DNA of 24,000 nt from Lysobacter sp. BL-A-41-H3 (GTDB lineage: Bacteria; Pseudomonadota; Gammaproteobacteria; Xanthomonadales; Xanthomonadaceae): the NCBI GenBank assembly GCA_050632415.1, contig CP192602.1:324641-348640 (forward strand), given 5' to 3'. Within the stretch, counting starts at the first letter, position 1; every line of letters starts with the position of its first letter. Of the stretch, positions 687 through 4,737 are shown piece after piece. The notes below the pieces were generated by a model, which was not told where the DNA came from, did not search any database, and worked only from the letters and a program-made list of their open reading frames with translations. The translations under genes and the position numbers were made by a program.

Positions 687-1322
687 CTAGCGGGTCGGGC
701 TGGTCTCGACCGGCAGCATCACTTCATTGCGTCGCAGCGGCCCGAGCGTCCAAGGTGGATTGTATTGCGCCAATACCGCAGGGCCCGTGGCCTTGAGGTT
801 CCGCTGCGCCATCCATCGCGCCAGCTCGACGCGCTTTCGTTCGAAGTCGCGATTGTTCGCCCATCCGGTGAACCGGATCACGGCGAAGCGCGCGGCCGGC
901 GTCACGCGCAGCTCCACCCGTGGATCGTTCGGCGTCGGCAGCGTATCGAGCGTGTATCCGGCCGGCATCGTGAACCGGACGATCCATGCCCCGGCGACTC
1001 CGGTCTGGCTCACGGGCGCGGTCATCGCGATCTTCTCGCCCGTCGGCGGCGACTGCGAGACCGGTGCCGTCATCGCGATGCGCTCGCGTCGCGTGTTCTT
1101 GCCGAAGATGTAGTCGGCTAGGATGCGAAATCCTGCGCTGGATGCGTCGTCGCGGGTTCCCTTCACTTCCGTCTCGGCGACCACCAGAGGCGGATATTGC
1201 CTGACCTGGAACGCGTCCTCGTCGATGATGAGGGTGAACGGCGGCTCTTCGGTGGCCATGGCGACGTTGCTCGTGAGCAGGAGGAGGAGCGACGCTGCAG
1301 AGGCGAATGCGTACGTTTTCAC
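687..1322 (-). CDS. Secreted SOUL/HEBP-family heme-binding-like protein
   Basis: 211-aa ORF with a GTG start at 1320-1322; the next in-frame Met would delete the signal peptide. The signal peptide is MKTYAFASAASLLLLLTSNVAMA. Family blocks are present: IAMTAPVSQ twice, and AQYNPPWTLGPLRRNEV near the C-terminus. Confidence 0.75.
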   Translation of the reverse strand: MKTYAFASAASLLLLLTSNVAMATEEPPFTLIIDEDAFQVRQYPPLVVAETEVKGTRDDASSAGFRILADYIFGKNTRRERIAMTAPVSQSPPTGEKIAMTAPVSQTGVAGAWIVRFTMPAGYTLDTLPTPNDPRVELRVTPAARFAVIRFTGWANNRDFERKRVELARWMAQRNLKATGPAVLAQYNPPWTLGPLRRNEVMLPVETSPTR

Positions 1323-1466: not shown

Positions 1467-2609
1467 TCAGGCGGTCTCGCGGAGCGGACGGGCGGCGAGA
1501 CGCCGCGCCCAGTAGGACGCCTCGGGCCAGCGCCTCTCCATCGCATGGAACCCGCGCAGCTGTTCGCGATAGACGCGATGGATGTCGAGCATGTGGCGCG
1601 CGTAGGCGTCGATGGCGGTGATATCGCCCGATGCATGGCGCAGCAGGGCATCGGCGCCGCGCAGGCCGGTGTACATCGCGTTCGAGATGCCTTTGGACGA
1701 CAGCGGGTCGAAGGCGAGGGCGGCATCGCCCACGGCGAGCCAGCGGTCACAGGCGGCGCGGTCCAGGTGGCAGCCCGAGGCGTCGGCACCGCGGGTCTGC
1801 GAGGCCGGTGAATACCCGTGCGCGGTGCACAGCGCATGCAGGTGCGGTGCGTCGGCCAGCGCGCGCCAGAGGCCGTTGTCGTCGAGCAATTGGCGGTGGT
1901 CGCACAGGTCGGCATCAGTGAGGAAGGCGACCAGCCGTTCCCGTGACGGCAGCAGCACGCTGTACCACCAGCCGTTCTCGACGGCTTCGACCCAGGTGCG
2001 GCCGTCGCGGTCGTCGTCGCGCGCGGTGCGCAGGCGCTGGTGGAAGGCGATCTGCCCGTCGTGCGCGACCTTGCGTGCGCCGAGCGTGCGGGCGAGCGAT
2101 GCACTGCGGCCGGTGGCATCGATCAGCCAGTCGGCGTCGATGGATTCGGCCTCCGCGTGCGTCTGCGCATCGACGGGTCGCAGCGCGAGCCGGTGCGGTC
2201 TCGTCGCGTCGCCGGGTGCCACGATGCGCACGCGTGCGCCCTGCAGGATGTCCGCGCCGGCCTGCATCGCCGCGTCGCGCAGCATCGCGTCGAAACGCGT
2301 CCGGTCGAGCTGCAGGCCATGGCCATGCAGCTGGAAGAGGAAGTCGTTGGCGTGCGCCGTGGCATCGCCCCAGAACGCGTTGGTGCCGGGGCTGGCGCGA
2401 TGCCCGTCGGCGAGCGTGCGTTCGAGCACGCCGAGATCGCGCAGCAGCGAACGCGCATTCGGCGGCAGGCCCTCGCCGACCTTGAATGCCGTGTCGTCGC
2501 CACCCGCGACCAGCAGGACGTCGCGACCGGCGCGGGCGAGGACGATCGCGGCGGCGGCACCCGCAGGGCCGCCACCGGCGATGACGACGTCGCGACGCCG
2601 CATCGACAC
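1467..2609 (-). CDS. LodB/GoxB-like FAD-dependent flavoprotein (putative cofactor-maturation monooxygenase for the upstream oxidase)
   Basis: 380-aa ORF. It has an N-terminal Rossmann dinucleotide motif (DVVIAGGGPAGAAAAIVLARAG), a DATG motif (LIDATGRSA) and a GD motif (WLAVGDAALAFDPLSSKGI), typical of the flavin monooxygenase/halogenase-like fold. The GTG at 2607-2609 lies 4 nt after the stop of the upstream oxidase gene, suggesting translational coupling. The ATG at 2601-2603 is an equally plausible start and would give MRRRDVVIAGGG. Confidence 0.8.
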   Translation of the reverse strand: MSMRRRDVVIAGGGPAGAAAAIVLARAGRDVLLVAGGDDTAFKVGEGLPPNARSLLRDLGVLERTLADGHRASPGTNAFWGDATAHANDFLFQLHGHGLQLDRTRFDAMLRDAAMQAGADILQGARVRIVAPGDATRPHRLALRPVDAQTHAEAESIDADWLIDATGRSASLARTLGARKVAHDGQIAFHQRLRTARDDDRDGRTWVEAVENGWWYSVLLPSRERLVAFLTDADLCDHRQLLDDNGLWRALADAPHLHALCTAHGYSPASQTRGADASGCHLDRAACDRWLAVGDAALAFDPLSSKGISNAMYTGLRGADALLRHASGDITAIDAYARHMLDIHRVYREQLRGFHAMERRWPEASYWARRLAARPLRETA

Positions 2610-2613
2610 CCGG

Positions 2614-4620
2614 TCAGTCCGGTGTACGCGTGCGTCGTACCGGGAGCGGTGCGGCGTCCGCTTCGGACTGCGACGCGAAGTTCACGCCGCTGAGCCGCAG
2701 CGTGGCCATCGGATGCGCCTTGAGCGCGGCTTCCGCGTCGGAGGCTTTCGCCACGGCGCGCGGCGGTGCGGCGACGGCGGCATCGCTGGTGGTCGCGGCA
2801 TCGGCCGGCGCCACGTCGGGGCCGTACGAGGCGACCATCATCAAGGCCGGGAAGTCCGGCGCCACGCTGGCATCGAAGCGCGGTTCGACCAGGCCCATCG
2901 AACCGAAGATGTGCGTCATCTGCACCATCTGCTGCGCGGTGGTGCCATGCAGCGGCTTGTTCCAGCTGGTGCGGTTGCTGAAGGCGTCGATGCGTTTCGA
3001 CATCGGCTGGGTCTTGTCGACCACGATCGCGTAGTCGTCGGCGGTCAGCACGTGGTTCGGCACGCGCGCGGGCCAGAACGTCGGCGCGTACGGGTCGTAG
3101 GCGGTGTCGTAGCCGGCGCGGCAGAAGGCCGTGTCCGCCTGCCAGGGCAGGCCCATCCAGCGGTTGATGTCGCCGGGGCTTTGCGCGTGCAGCGGGCCAT
3201 CGGGCGCGAGTGCCTGCGCCTGGTCGAGCGTCGGGCCGTAGTCCGGTTCGGGCTGGCCCGGCGGACGTTCGAGGATGCGGAACGGCGCGCGGTACAGCGT
3301 GATGTGGCGCATCGGCCAGGTCATCTCGCAGCCGGGATGGAAGGCGTCGGCGAGACAGAATTCCATCGCCGCGCGATCGATCGTCGCCGGCTGCGCAGCC
3401 AGCGGTACCTGGTCGATGTCCGACGGGCCTGCGGCCGGCAGGCCGCCGACGCGGTCGTCGACGAAATCGCCGTTCACCCAGCGCTGCAGGATCGTGTACT
3501 GGGTCTGGCTGATCGCCGCGTTCTGGCGCGGGCTCGGCCCGGCGGGTACTTCCATTGCGTCGCCGTAGATCCACGGCCACGGCAGCTGGTTGCCGTCGGG
3601 CGGATTCGGCGGACGGAAGCTGTTGAAGACCTGGCGGCGCAGTTCTGCATTCGGGTCGTACTGACCCGCCGGTGCTTTCGAGGCGAGCCGCGCGACGAAG
3701 GCCGGATCCTCGAACGGATGCGGCCCGTCTTCGCCGTACTGCGTGGCGAAGCCCTGGTTGACCCACTGCAGGCCGGACAGCCGCTGCAGGATCGGGTAGA
3801 TGTCGTGGCTGAAGGACAGCGTGCCCGGCGCCTGCATCCAGCCGGCCTGGATGTACAGGTCGTAGAGCAGGTCGTAGAGCGTGCGCTCGGACTTGAGCTG
3901 CGGCGCGTAGTTCGGCGGCGCGGTGACCACCCAGGCCGAATCGACCGGGATGCTCTGGCCGCCGATCGCCACCGTGGCCGAGATCGGCCCGTCGCAGGTG
4001 TCGTCGTACCAGCCGTCGGCGTTGATGAAGGAATTCGGGTCGGTGGGGATGTAGATCGGCGTGTTGTTCGGCGAGGCCGAGACGCCATGGCCGCCGAGGA
4101 ACAGCAGCCGGCCGCGTTCGTCGGTGCGCAGCTCGCCGATCTTCACCGGCACTCCGGTGTAGGCGCCGCTGCAGTCGACCGGCGTCGCGTTCCTGCCGGA
4201 GATCGACTGCGGGCCGGCATCGATGGTGAGCGAGGCGCGGTCGGCGACGGTCGCGTTGCGCAGCGGCAGCACGGTGCCGGCGGCTTCCGGGATGTCCATC
4301 GCGATCTGCCACTGGTACCAGGACGCCTTGCGGTTCGCGACGTGCGCGGTCCAGGTGATGTCGGCGTTGTCTGCAGTGAGTTCGGCGACGACCTCGCCGG
4401 CCGCGTTGTAGCCGTAGATGCGGAACTGCGCGGCTTCGCGTTTCAGCGCACCGGTGGCGTCGCGGTAGAAGCCCTGGGGCTTCGGTGCGGGGTCGGGCAC
4501 CAGCGGGCCGATGTAGATGTCGTCGACGCTGTTGCCCACCCGGGCCAGGCCGATGCCCGGGTGGATGGCGGCGCGGACGATGGTGCTGTCCGAAGGGGTG
4601 CTGTCCGAGGGCGTGGTCAT
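2614..4620 (-). CDS. LodA/GoxA-like quinoprotein amino-acid oxidase (putative cysteine tryptophylquinone enzyme), 668 aa
   Basis: The track ORF runs 2614-4755. I moved the start to the ATG at 4618-4620 because a perfect AAGGAG RBS (complement of 4630-4635) sits 9 nt upstream. Blocks I recognise from the LodA family: N-terminal AAIHPGIGLARVGNS, ADAFHPGCEMTW (Cys431, codon 3328-3330) and GDINRWMGLPWQADTAFC (Trp488 at 3157-3159, Trp493 at 3142-3144). No signal peptide. A flavoprotein gene follows immediately downstream, as in lodAB and goxAB. Confidence 0.8.
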   Translation of the reverse strand: MTTPSDSTPSDSTIVRAAIHPGIGLARVGNSVDDIYIGPLVPDPAPKPQGFYRDATGALKREAAQFRIYGYNAAGEVVAELTADNADITWTAHVANRKASWYQWQIAMDIPEAAGTVLPLRNATVADRASLTIDAGPQSISGRNATPVDCSGAYTGVPVKIGELRTDERGRLLFLGGHGVSASPNNTPIYIPTDPNSFINADGWYDDTCDGPISATVAIGGQSIPVDSAWVVTAPPNYAPQLKSERTLYDLLYDLYIQAGWMQAPGTLSFSHDIYPILQRLSGLQWVNQGFATQYGEDGPHPFEDPAFVARLASKAPAGQYDPNAELRRQVFNSFRPPNPPDGNQLPWPWIYGDAMEVPAGPSPRQNAAISQTQYTILQRWVNGDFVDDRVGGLPAAGPSDIDQVPLAAQPATIDRAAMEFCLADAFHPGCEMTWPMRHITLYRAPFRILERPPGQPEPDYGPTLDQAQALAPDGPLHAQSPGDINRWMGLPWQADTAFCRAGYDTAYDPYAPTFWPARVPNHVLTADDYAIVVDKTQPMSKRIDAFSNRTSWNKPLHGTTAQQMVQMTHIFGSMGLVEPRFDASVAPDFPALMMVASYGPDVAPADAATTSDAAVAAPPRAVAKASDAEAALKAHPMATLRLSGVNFASQSEADAAPLPVRRTRTPD

Positions 4621-4737
4621 GGTGGTGCGCTCCTTGTCGTTCGATGCGGTCCGATGCGGGATGGCCGTCGTGGCCCCGTCGTGAAGTATCGCGATCCGCG
4701 CGATCGCGGCCAGCTGCAATATCGCACAGCCCCGTGA

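What the first reader, a model, noticed from the sequence alone, without database searches (positions are those of the whole stretch)
1467..4620. LodA-like quinoprotein oxidase plus LodB-like flavoprotein: a two-gene CTQ oxidase module of unknown substrate
Seen in sequence: a 668-aa protein with AAIHPGIGLARVGNS, FHPGCEMTW and RWMGLPWQAD blocks, and no signal peptide. It is followed after 4 nt by a 380-aa flavoprotein with GGGPAG, DATG and GDAA-DP motifs. Established knowledge: Marinomonas mediterranea LodA (L-lysine epsilon-oxidase) and GoxA (glycine oxidase) carry cysteine tryptophylquinone, made post-translationally from a Cys and a Trp with the help of the flavoprotein LodB/GoxB encoded immediately downstream. 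As I recall, the LodA residues are Cys516 and Trp581. These enzymes release H2O2 and have been linked to antimicrobial activity and biofilm dispersal. Only a few members of the wider family have known substrates. Inference: Cys431 and Trp488 or Trp493 (57 or 62 residues apart, against 65 in LodA) are the CTQ precursors, and the substrate cannot be predicted from sequence. This is a described family, but it is the least housekeeping-like enzyme system in the window.
Basis: partly seen in the sequence, partly recalled or inferred. Interest (0 to 1): 0.65.

Follow-up and report, generated by a model that had tools for sequence, protein, structure and literature searches.

The report
Uncharacterised quinone oxidase with its maturase
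This is an intact two-gene unit for a LodA/GoxA-type oxidase, which builds its quinone cofactor from its own Cys and Trp, plus the flavoprotein that matures it; the family is already described, its substrate is unknown, and this lineage has lost the catalase-like head that relatives carry.

Summary
On the minus strand lie a 668-aa LodA-like gene (2614-4620, AAGGAG ribosome site) and, 4 nt later, a 380-aa LodB/GoxB-like flavoprotein gene (1467-2609).

Pfam LodA_N and LodA_C match at 2e-76 and 4e-39. All 50 significant PDB fold matches are GoxA or LodA.

The module reading is right, but the cofactor residues were mis-assigned. Numbering taken from LodA (3WEU) and P. luteoviolacea GoxA (6BYW) puts the CTQ pair at Cys500 and Trp516, with Asp496 as the conserved Asp. 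All three are invariant in 88 family members. Cys431 aligns with LodA Ile451 and GoxA Val586.

The protein is neither a LodA nor a GoxA equivalog (163 bits against a cut-off of 600; 397 against 750). It is 70% identical to a published Group III member, and I found no paper that characterises any member of that group.

Same-genus relatives carry, at the same tadA-flanked locus, a ~1020-aa fusion with an N-terminal catalase-related domain. The window's clade has lost that domain, yet both genes remain under purifying selection (dN/dS 0.07-0.28).

This is a new member of a known kind. Substrate unknown; interest modest.

The parts
2614..4620 (-). lodA-like gene: 668-aa Group III LodA/GoxA-family CTQ quinoprotein oxidase (stop codon included)
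   Evidence: Pfam LodA_N 2e-76 and LodA_C 4.4e-39. NCBIfam GoxA 397 bits and LodA 163 bits, both below cut-off. Foldseek to GoxA 2.6e-34 and LodA 3e-28. 70% identity to the Group III protein of Cupriavidus sp. UYPR2.512 (PMC4417212).
4630..4635 (-). Shine-Dalgarno AAGGAG, 9 nt before ATG 4620
   Evidence: Read directly. It supports the 668-aa start.
4585..4614 (-). Codons 3-12, tandem TPSDS-TPSDS. The copy number varies among close relatives (1 in L003, 2 here and in L001/L002, 3 in G567).
4027..4029 (-). Phe198 codon, equivalent to GoxA Phe316 and LodA Tyr211 (active-site gate residue)
   Evidence: Alignment to 6byw and 3weu. F in 81/81 group III sequences.
3337..3339 (-). His428 codon, equivalent to GoxA His583 and LodA Cys448
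   Evidence: The PDB entry names H583C/F316A/D678A/Y766F/H767A confirm the numbering.
3328..3330 (-). Cys431 codon. This is not a CTQ residue. It is invariant within group III only and aligns with LodA Ile451 and GoxA Val586.
3133..3135 (-). Asp496 codon, the conserved tryptophylquinone-site Asp (LodA D512, GoxA D678)
   Evidence: Invariant in 88/88 sequences. Alignments.
3121..3123 (-). Cys500 codon, the predicted CTQ cysteine (LodA C516, GoxA C682)
   Evidence: Invariant in 88/88 sequences. Alignments.
3073..3075 (-). Trp516 codon, the predicted CTQ tryptophan (LodA W581, GoxA W697)
   Evidence: Invariant in 88/88 sequences. Alignments.
2617..2823 (-). C-terminal tail (residues 600-668): a variable Ala/Pro-rich linker, then the subgroup-conserved end motif G-x-N-F-x-S-x-x-E-A-x-x-A-P-L-P-V-R-R. 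It is predicted to be disordered.
   Evidence: MSA. pLDDT 34-44. Absent from the LodA orthologue L082.
1467..2609 (-). lodB-like gene: 380-aa FAD-dependent CTQ maturase (alternative ATG start at 2603)
   Evidence: NCBIfam GoxB 227 bits, LodB 219 bits and QhpG 160 bits, each full length. PDB CmlS 1e-25 and QhpG 7ctq 1.8e-12. A copy follows lodA in 73 of the 80 related loci, lies upstream in one (L073), and the six without one stop within ~200 nt of the lodA stop.
687..1322 (-). Same-strand gene for an exported SOUL-family protein, 144 nt after lodB. Possibly co-transcribed; not a constant partner.
   Evidence: Pfam SOUL 2.5e-48. Present after lodB in L001, L038 and G567, nearby in L006, L008 and L016, absent in L002 and L003. 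No terminator-like site in the gap.

Best explanation
This is a two-gene operon for a Group III LodA-like quinoprotein oxidase and its dedicated flavoprotein maturase.

The 668-aa precursor is made without a signal peptide. Trp516 is first hydroxylated, an autocatalytic step in LodA and GoxA that involves the neighbouring conserved Asp, here Asp496. The co-translated LodB-like FAD protein then adds the second oxygen and forms the Cys500-Trp516 thioether, giving cysteine tryptophylquinone.

The mature enzyme oxidatively deaminates a primary amine or amino acid through a Schiff base on the quinone. It releases the carbonyl product and ammonia, and is re-oxidised by O2 to give H2O2.

The substrate is most likely neither L-lysine nor glycine. 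The gene descends from a fusion with an N-terminal catalase-related haem domain that was deleted in this lineage, so the enzyme here should be a net H2O2 producer.

Shown: gene structure, family, fold, cofactor-residue conservation, gene pairing, domain loss and purifying selection. Inferred: cofactor formation, oxidase chemistry, H2O2 release and substrate class.
For: Family and fold. All 50 PDB fold matches with E<=1e-3 are GoxA or LodA, with TM up to 0.68.

Cofactor triad: Asp496, Cys500 and Trp516 align with LodA D512/C516/W581 and GoxA D678/C682/W697, and are invariant in 81 group III plus 7 distant family members.

Maturase: full-length matches to the GoxB, LodB and QhpG models and to CmlS and QhpG structures. 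The 4-nt spacer suggests translational coupling. A lodB-like ORF follows lodA in 73 of 80 related loci across more than 8 phyla; one locus (L073) has it upstream, and the six without one are cut within ~200 nt of the lodA stop.

Group III placement: 70% identity to the Cupriavidus sp. UYPR2.512 protein that PMC4417212 lists among the pfam00199 fusions, all of which it places in Group III.

Not LodA or GoxA: both scores are below the equivalog cut-offs. The LodA residues Tyr211 and Cys448 are Phe and His here. The GoxA loop that carries Tyr766/His767 is 12 residues shorter here, and its His558 is not conserved.

Domain loss: relatives of the same GTDB genus (G489, G597) and other Lysobacteraceae carry the ~1020-aa fusion at the same tadA-flanked locus.

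Still functional: dN/dS within the unfused clade is 0.065-0.11 for lodA and 0.18-0.28 for lodB.

Mechanism of maturation is taken from PMC7876137.
Against: No biochemical data exist for any Group III member in the literature I could search. Cofactor, activity and substrate are therefore inferred by homology at about 22% identity to the solved enzymes.

AlphaFold gives low confidence exactly over residues 498-522, the CTQ loop. The model therefore does not confirm that Cys500 and Trp516 lie close together.

The gene tree leaves the window clade in an unresolved fork with both fused and unfused groups. The direction of change (loss rather than gain) rests on synteny and parsimony.

Confidence: 0.85

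Rival explanations
1. It is a glycine oxidase of the GoxA type: same chemistry, with glycine as the substrate.
For: The GoxA model scores far higher than the LodA model (397 against 163 bits). GoxA is also the closest solved fold. The GoxA-type pair Phe198 and His428 (GoxA F316 and H583) is invariant in the subgroup.
Against: The score is about half the GoxA equivalog cut-off of 750. The loop carrying GoxA Tyr766/His767 is 12 residues shorter here and has no conserved His. As I recall, the H767A variant is nearly inactive; 6vmv is that variant. There is no twin-arginine motif of the kind reported for Group IIA/IIB proteins (PMC4417212). An M. mediterranea mutant lacking lod and gox lost glycine oxidase activity although it keeps its Group III gene Marme_2396 (PMC4417212).
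Confidence: 0.08
2. It is an L-lysine epsilon-oxidase (a true LodA).
For: It is in the same family, and lysine oxidase is the founding activity.
Against: The LodA equivalog score is 163 bits against a cut-off of 600. LodA Tyr211 and Cys448 are replaced here. The LodA insertion that holds Lys530, between the Cys and the Trp, is absent. Group III is a separate clade from Group IA (PMC4417212).
Confidence: 0.03
3. It is a decaying remnant. Deleting the catalase-related domain inactivated the system, and the genes are on their way to becoming pseudogenes.
For: The N-terminal domain found in same-genus relatives is missing. The 5' end carries a slippage-prone repeat of variable copy number.
Against: Both reading frames are intact. 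All family-invariant residues are kept. dN/dS is 0.065-0.11 for lodA and 0.18-0.28 for lodB across four genomes of the unfused clade, with dS up to 0.5-1.0. Many other lineages, such as Pseudomonas and Acidovorax, naturally have unfused forms.
Confidence: 0.04

Closest known systems
Group III LodA-like proteins (Campillo-Brocal et al. 2015, PMC4417212), e.g. Cupriavidus sp. UYPR2.512 A3A5DRAFT_06866 and M. mediterranea Marme_2396; NCBI name 'LodA/GoxA family CTQ-dependent oxidase'
   Same: It is 70% identical over the whole LodA part to the Cupriavidus protein. It has the same lodA-lodB gene order, no signal peptide, the same invariant Asp/Cys/Trp triad, and the same subgroup-specific Cys431 and C-terminal motif.
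   Different: It lacks the ~360-aa N-terminal catalase-related (y4iL-like) domain carried by the Cupriavidus protein and by most of its Lysobacteraceae relatives. The group has no characterised member, so there is no function to compare.
Glycine oxidase GoxA of Pseudoalteromonas luteoviolacea (PDB 6BYW and variants) with GoxB
   Same: It is the best solved fold match (E 2.6e-34, TM 0.68). The Cys-Trp spacing is short (15 against 16). Phe316, His583, Asp678, Cys682 and Trp697 all have identical counterparts here (F198, H428, D496, C500, W516). A flavoprotein maturase is encoded downstream.
   Different: Identity is only about 22-23%. GoxA is 816 aa, with extra N-terminal and internal segments. 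The Tyr766/His767 loop is not present here. The NCBIfam GoxA score is below its cut-off.
L-lysine epsilon-oxidase LodA of Marinomonas mediterranea (PDB 3WEU, 2YMW) with LodB
   Same: It has the same two Pfam domains and the same PWQAD-x3-C motif. The cofactor Trp sits in a W-P-x-x-x-P context. The operon layout is the same.
   Different: LodA has about 50 extra residues, including Lys530, between the Cys and the Trp. It has Tyr211 and Cys448 where this protein has Phe and His. The LodA model score is 163 bits against a cut-off of 600.
QhpG, the flavoprotein Trp dihydroxylase of quinohemoprotein amine dehydrogenase (PDB 7CTQ)
   Same: The lodB-like product matches the QhpG model over its full length (8.7e-47) and the structure at 1.8e-12. 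Both are CmlS-like FAD monooxygenases that make CTQ.
   Different: QhpG acts on a small separate gamma subunit and inserts both oxygens. LodB and GoxB act on a mono-hydroxylated Trp within the large oxidase itself (PMC7876137).

Membership tests
LodA/GoxA family of CTQ quinoprotein oxidases | LodA_N and LodA_C domains over the full length | tested here: met
   PF17990 2e-76 (residues 20-232, profile 1-212/213). PF18417 4.4e-39 (residues 364-516).
LodA/GoxA family of CTQ quinoprotein oxidases | Cys and Trp aligned with LodA Cys516 and Trp581 (the CTQ precursors), reported as conserved in 100% of family members | tested here: met
   Cys500 and Trp516. LodA numbering was derived from 3weu_A and GoxA numbering from 6byw. 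Both columns are invariant in 88/88 sequences.
LodA/GoxA family of CTQ quinoprotein oxidases | Conserved Asp next to the cofactor (LodA D512, GoxA D678) | tested here: met
   Asp496 in PWQAD, invariant in 88/88 sequences.
LodA/GoxA family of CTQ quinoprotein oxidases | LodB-like flavoprotein gene immediately downstream | tested here: met
   A 380-aa ORF 4 nt after the stop. GoxB 3.5e-67 and LodB 8.8e-65, both full length.
LodA/GoxA family of CTQ quinoprotein oxidases | Fold of the solved LodA and GoxA structures | tested here: met
   AF2 model with pTM 0.85. Foldseek gives GoxA 2.6e-34 and LodA 3.3e-28, and no other protein among the 50 significant hits.
LodA/GoxA family of CTQ quinoprotein oxidases | A mature CTQ cofactor, and amine oxidation that releases H2O2 | not testable with these tools
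   Needs expression, quinone staining or MS, and an activity assay.
LodA proper (L-lysine epsilon-oxidase, NCBIfam NF038172 equivalog) | Score above the curated equivalog cut-off (600 bits) | tested here: not met
   162.7 bits. For comparison, a true orthologue (L082) scores 648.5 bits.
LodA proper (L-lysine epsilon-oxidase, NCBIfam NF038172 equivalog) | LodA active-site residues Tyr211, Cys448 and Lys530 | tested here: not met
   Phe198 and His428 stand in their place. The segment that holds Lys530 is absent.
GoxA (CTQ glycine oxidase, NCBIfam NF038173 equivalog) | Score above the curated equivalog cut-off (750 bits) | tested here: not met
   397.1 bits.
GoxA (CTQ glycine oxidase, NCBIfam NF038173 equivalog) | Active-site residues of P. 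luteoviolacea GoxA: Phe316, His583, Tyr766, His767 | tested here: inconclusive
   Equivalents of Phe316 and His583 are present and invariant (F198, H428). The Tyr766/His767 loop (FVGYHAEGGY) has no counterpart: the loop is 12 residues shorter, and His558 is found in only 41/81 sequences. This rests on sequence alignment only.
Group III LodA-like proteins (PMC4417212) | Clusters with the published Group III members, the only group that holds the pfam00199 (catalase-like) fusions | tested here: met
   70% identity to the Cupriavidus sp. UYPR2.512 fusion protein (L030), which is listed in Table 3 of the paper. The window clade sits within a 99%-supported 62-sequence clade of fused and unfused relatives that also holds L030. 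The paper's own reference tree was not rebuilt.

The most novel reading that the evidence does not exclude
Group III enzymes may be built as self-contained oxidase-haem machines, in which the catalase-related head consumes, or uses as co-substrate, the H2O2 made by the CTQ domain. If so, the window's lineage deleted the head in frame at the same locus and turned a 'silent' intracellular oxidase into a net H2O2 generator acting on a substrate that is neither lysine nor glycine. That could serve as an antagonistic weapon, which would fit Lysobacter-type bacteria. The subgroup-specific Cys431 and the conserved C-terminal peptide would then be new functional elements, in substrate choice or maturase docking.
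Probability: 0.15. Interest if true: 0.55.

Novelty: new member of a known kind. Interest (0 to 1): 0.35.

Why it matters
CTQ oxidases of the LodA family are of interest as antimicrobial H2O2 generators, as biofilm-dispersal factors and as biosensor enzymes. Only lysine and glycine oxidases have been characterised, while Group III, a broadly distributed group that holds all the catalase-domain fusions, has no known substrate.

This locus offers a small, intact, unfused Group III pair from a complete genome. Fused versions sit at the same locus in sister species. That makes a natural matched pair for asking what Group III oxidises and what the haem domain is for.

The corrected cofactor residues, Cys500 and Trp516, are the ones a mutagenesis or MS experiment must target.

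Tried and rejected
Rejected by residue-level alignment to 3WEU and 6BYW and by family-wide conservation.
- **Trp553 as the CTQ Trp.** I first suspected it because it lies 53 residues after Cys500, close to LodA's spacing of 65. Rejected: LodA W581 lies in YWWPPQSP, which aligns with Trp516, and column 553 is Tyr in the LodA orthologue.
- **Deletion junction.** A DNA alignment of the tadA-lodA intergenic region between the window and fused relatives showed no clear homology beyond the ribosome-site region.
- **Stand-alone head domain.** I searched this genome for a separate copy of the catalase-related domain and found none. One ordinary catalase lies 1.2 Mb away.
- **Pfam scan of the relatives' N-terminal domain.** No hit even at E=1. 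Its catalase-related nature rests on PDB 3e4w (3.6e-7) and on the 2015 paper.
- **Neighbour-gene clustering across 80 loci, to find substrate clues.** Only lodA and lodB recur universally. The aldehyde dehydrogenase next to lodB in fused Lysobacteraceae is 88-97% conserved, is lineage-specific synteny and is absent from the window.
- **SOUL protein as a replacement for the lost haem domain.** Rejected. It also occurs near fused genes (L006, L008, L016) and is missing from unfused L002 and L003.
- **Promoter and terminator scan.** Nothing useful.
Full report
**1. What is there**

Both genes lie on the minus strand. The LodA-like ORF runs from ATG 4620 to the TGA stop at 2614-2616 and encodes 668 aa. 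A consensus AAGGAG sits 9 nt upstream (4630-4635), which favours this start over the longer GTG 4755 frame. Four nucleotides after the stop (TGA-CCGG-GTG), a 380-aa ORF begins at GTG 2609 and ends at 1467. An ATG two codons in (2603) is an alternative start, because Pseudomonas homologues align from residue 3. The N-terminus has no signal or twin-arginine leader.

**2. Family**

- The large protein matches Pfam LodA_N (2e-76, full profile) and LodA_C (4.4e-39).
- NCBIfam places it between the two characterised enzymes without reaching either equivalog cut-off: GoxA 397 bits (cut-off 750) and LodA 163 bits (cut-off 600).
- PDB sequence searches find only P. luteoviolacea GoxA (1.9e-41; 1.3e-61 with a 52-sequence profile) and M. 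mediterranea LodA (8.6e-35; 4e-53).
- An AlphaFold2 model built on the 52-sequence alignment has pTM 0.85 and mean pLDDT 79.
- That model retrieves GoxA (E 2.6e-34, TM 0.68) and LodA (E 3e-28). Nothing else appears among the 50 significant PDB matches.
- The small protein matches the GoxB (3.5e-67), LodB (8.8e-65) and QhpG (8.7e-47) maturase models end to end, all below their equivalog cut-offs.
- Its nearest solved structures are CmlS (1e-25) and the CTQ Trp dihydroxylase QhpG, 7ctq (1.8e-12). This is the pattern the literature describes for GoxB (PMC7876137).

**3.

I fetched a true LodA orthologue (L082, 648 bits on the LodA equivalog model) and aligned it to the 726-residue chain 3weu_A. 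This gave native LodA numbering:

- ...PWQA-D512-FFN-C516...
- ...YW-W581-PPQSP...
- ...M-C448-PGIEMTW...
- Y211, six residues before W217 of WYDD.

These agree with the published C516/W581 (PMC4417212).

The alignment of the window protein to GoxA chain 6byw gives H583 in FHPG, D678 and C682 in WQSDAASC, W697 in PSWWAANLP, and F316. The PDB entry titles (D678A, H583C, F316A, Y766F, H767A) confirm that numbering.

| Window residue | Context | LodA | GoxA |
|---|---|---|---|
| Asp496 | QAD-TAF-C | D512 | D678 |
| Cys500 | QAD-TAF-C | C516 | C682 |
| Trp516 | PTFW-PARVP | W581 | W697 |
| His428 | FHPG | C448 | H583 |
| Phe198 | six before W204 | Y211 | F316 |
| Cys431 | FHPGC | I451 | V586 |
| Trp493 | PWQAD | W509 | W675 |

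Cys431 and Trp493 are therefore not cofactor residues.

I aligned 81 relatives of this subgroup plus 7 distant LodA-like proteins drawn from a sample of 400 genomes of the same class:

- D496, C500 and W516 are invariant in all 88.
- C431 is invariant only within the subgroup; it is I, M or V in most of the others.
- W488 is not conserved outside the subgroup.

LodA's 65-residue Cys-Trp spacing comes from an insertion of about 50 residues. The spacing is 16 here and 15 in GoxA.

One caveat remains. AlphaFold is unconfident over residues 498-522, so the model itself does not show the two side chains in contact.

**4. Which kind of LodA-like protein**

The genome is a complete 4.64-Mb Lysobacteraceae chromosome with a single LodA_N gene.

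The protein is 70% identical to the Cupriavidus sp. UYPR2.512 protein (L030). Campillo-Brocal et al. list that protein among the pfam00199 fusions, all of which fall in their Group III. They state that no Group III protein had been characterised. They also report that an M. mediterranea lod/gox double mutant lost lysine and glycine oxidase activities although it keeps its Group III gene. My three literature searches found no later characterisation.

The active site is a mix:

- It has the GoxA-type Phe and His.
- The GoxA loop that carries Tyr766 and His767 (FVGYHAEGGY; numbering) is 12 residues shorter here.
- The His in that loop (His558) occurs in only 41 of 81 relatives.

I therefore consider it neither a glycine nor a lysine oxidase. 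The substrate remains unknown.

**5. The catalase-like head was lost in this lineage**

About half of the 80 closest loci encode ~1020-aa proteins with a ~360-aa N-terminal domain. That domain matches the catalase-related protein 3e4w at 3.6e-7. Pfam itself gives no hit, but the 2015 paper calls it pfam00199/cd08152.

The two arrangements in Lysobacteraceae are:

- Fused form: tadA, then divergently [head-lodA] lodB, with a convergent aldehyde dehydrogenase.
- Window clade (L001-L003 and G567, 91-98% identical): tadA, then divergently lodA (668 aa) and lodB, then SOUL in the window, L001 and G567 (absent in L002 and L003) and a convergent AraC gene.

Two other genomes of the same GTDB genus (G489, G597) carry the fused form at the tadA locus. 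LodA identity to them is 72-73% and TadA identity 77%.

The tadA-lodA spacer is of similar length in both forms. The window N-terminus (MTTPSDS...) resembles the first residues of the fused proteins (MSNTTDPSAS...). This points to an in-frame internal deletion, but intergenic DNA is too diverged to show the junction.

The gene tree needs at least 4 and most parsimoniously 11 changes of fusion state. It leaves the window clade in an unresolved fork. The direction of change therefore rests on synteny.

After the loss, both genes stayed under purifying selection. dN/dS is 0.065-0.11 for lodA and 0.18-0.28 for lodB. No stand-alone copy of the head exists in this genome, and one ordinary catalase lies 1.2 Mb away.

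**6. Surroundings**

Across 80 loci from more than 8 phyla, only lodA and lodB recur together. LodA_N genes were found in 19 of 201 sampled Lysobacteraceae genomes and 8 of 64 genera, so this is an accessory trait.

The exported SOUL-family gene sits 144 nt downstream with no terminator-like site. It appears near lodB in some Lysobacteraceae whatever the fusion state and is missing from L002 and L003, so it is not an obligate partner.

**7. Mechanism proposed**

The precursor is made in the cytoplasm. Trp516 is hydroxylated at C7 with help from Asp496. The flavoprotein then completes oxygenation and forms the Cys500-Trp516 cross-link (mechanism from PMC7876137).

The CTQ enzyme oxidises a primary amine to a carbonyl compound, NH3 and H2O2. 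Without the haem head the peroxide is not handled in cis.

Shown here: sequence, fold, conservation, pairing, loss and selection. Inferred: all of the chemistry.

**8. Verdict**

This is a new member of a described but biochemically unexplored subgroup. It is useful as a compact test case, not a surprise.

Noticed in passing
window 2617-2823 (residues 600-668 of the LodA-like protein): A variable Ala/Pro-rich linker is followed by a terminal peptide conserved across the subgroup from many phyla (consensus PRGANFxSxEEAxxAPLPVR[RH]). It is absent from LodA orthologues and predicted to be disordered. It could be a docking or autoregulatory motif.
   Followed up: partly
window 3328-3330 (Cys431): This Cys lies three residues after the active-site His428 and next to the family-invariant Glu432. 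It is invariant in all 81 subgroup members but is Ile, Met or Val in most other LodA-like proteins, so it marks this subgroup and may bear on substrate or redox behaviour.
   Followed up: partly
window 4585-4614: The TPSDS codon repeat at the 5' end varies in copy number among near-identical relatives: one copy in L003, two here and in L001/L002, three in same-genus G567. This is recent slippage at the probable scar of the domain deletion.
   Followed up: partly
window 687-1322 (-): An exported SOUL/HEBP-family protein gene sits on the same strand 144 nt after lodB. It recurs near lodB in several Lysobacteraceae (L001, L006, L008, L016, L038, G567) but not in L002 or L003.
   Followed up: partly
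L004, L006, L015, L019, L022, L058, L091 (about 0.4-0.5 kb past lodB; ~2.9 kb in L018 and L092): In Lysobacteraceae with the fused gene, a highly conserved aldehyde dehydrogenase (88-97% identical between genera) lies convergent to lodB, often with a GAF/sigma-54 activator beyond it. The window lineage has SOUL (in the window, L001 and G567) and AraC there instead, so the downstream flank was also rearranged.
   Followed up: partly
L020 (Montanilutibacter psychrotolerans) and protein P0021: The public annotation gives a 667-aa 'hypothetical protein' starting at MERPPQYAP..., but the open frame continues upstream through a complete catalase-related domain. The deposited gene start is probably called too late.
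   Followed up: no
L061 and L069 (Pseudomonas sp. FEN): The lodB-like gene is split into two ORFs that match the N- and C-terminal halves. The 2015 paper reported the same for Acidovorax avenae and Oceanospirillum. This genome also holds three copies of the lodA-like gene.
   Followed up: no
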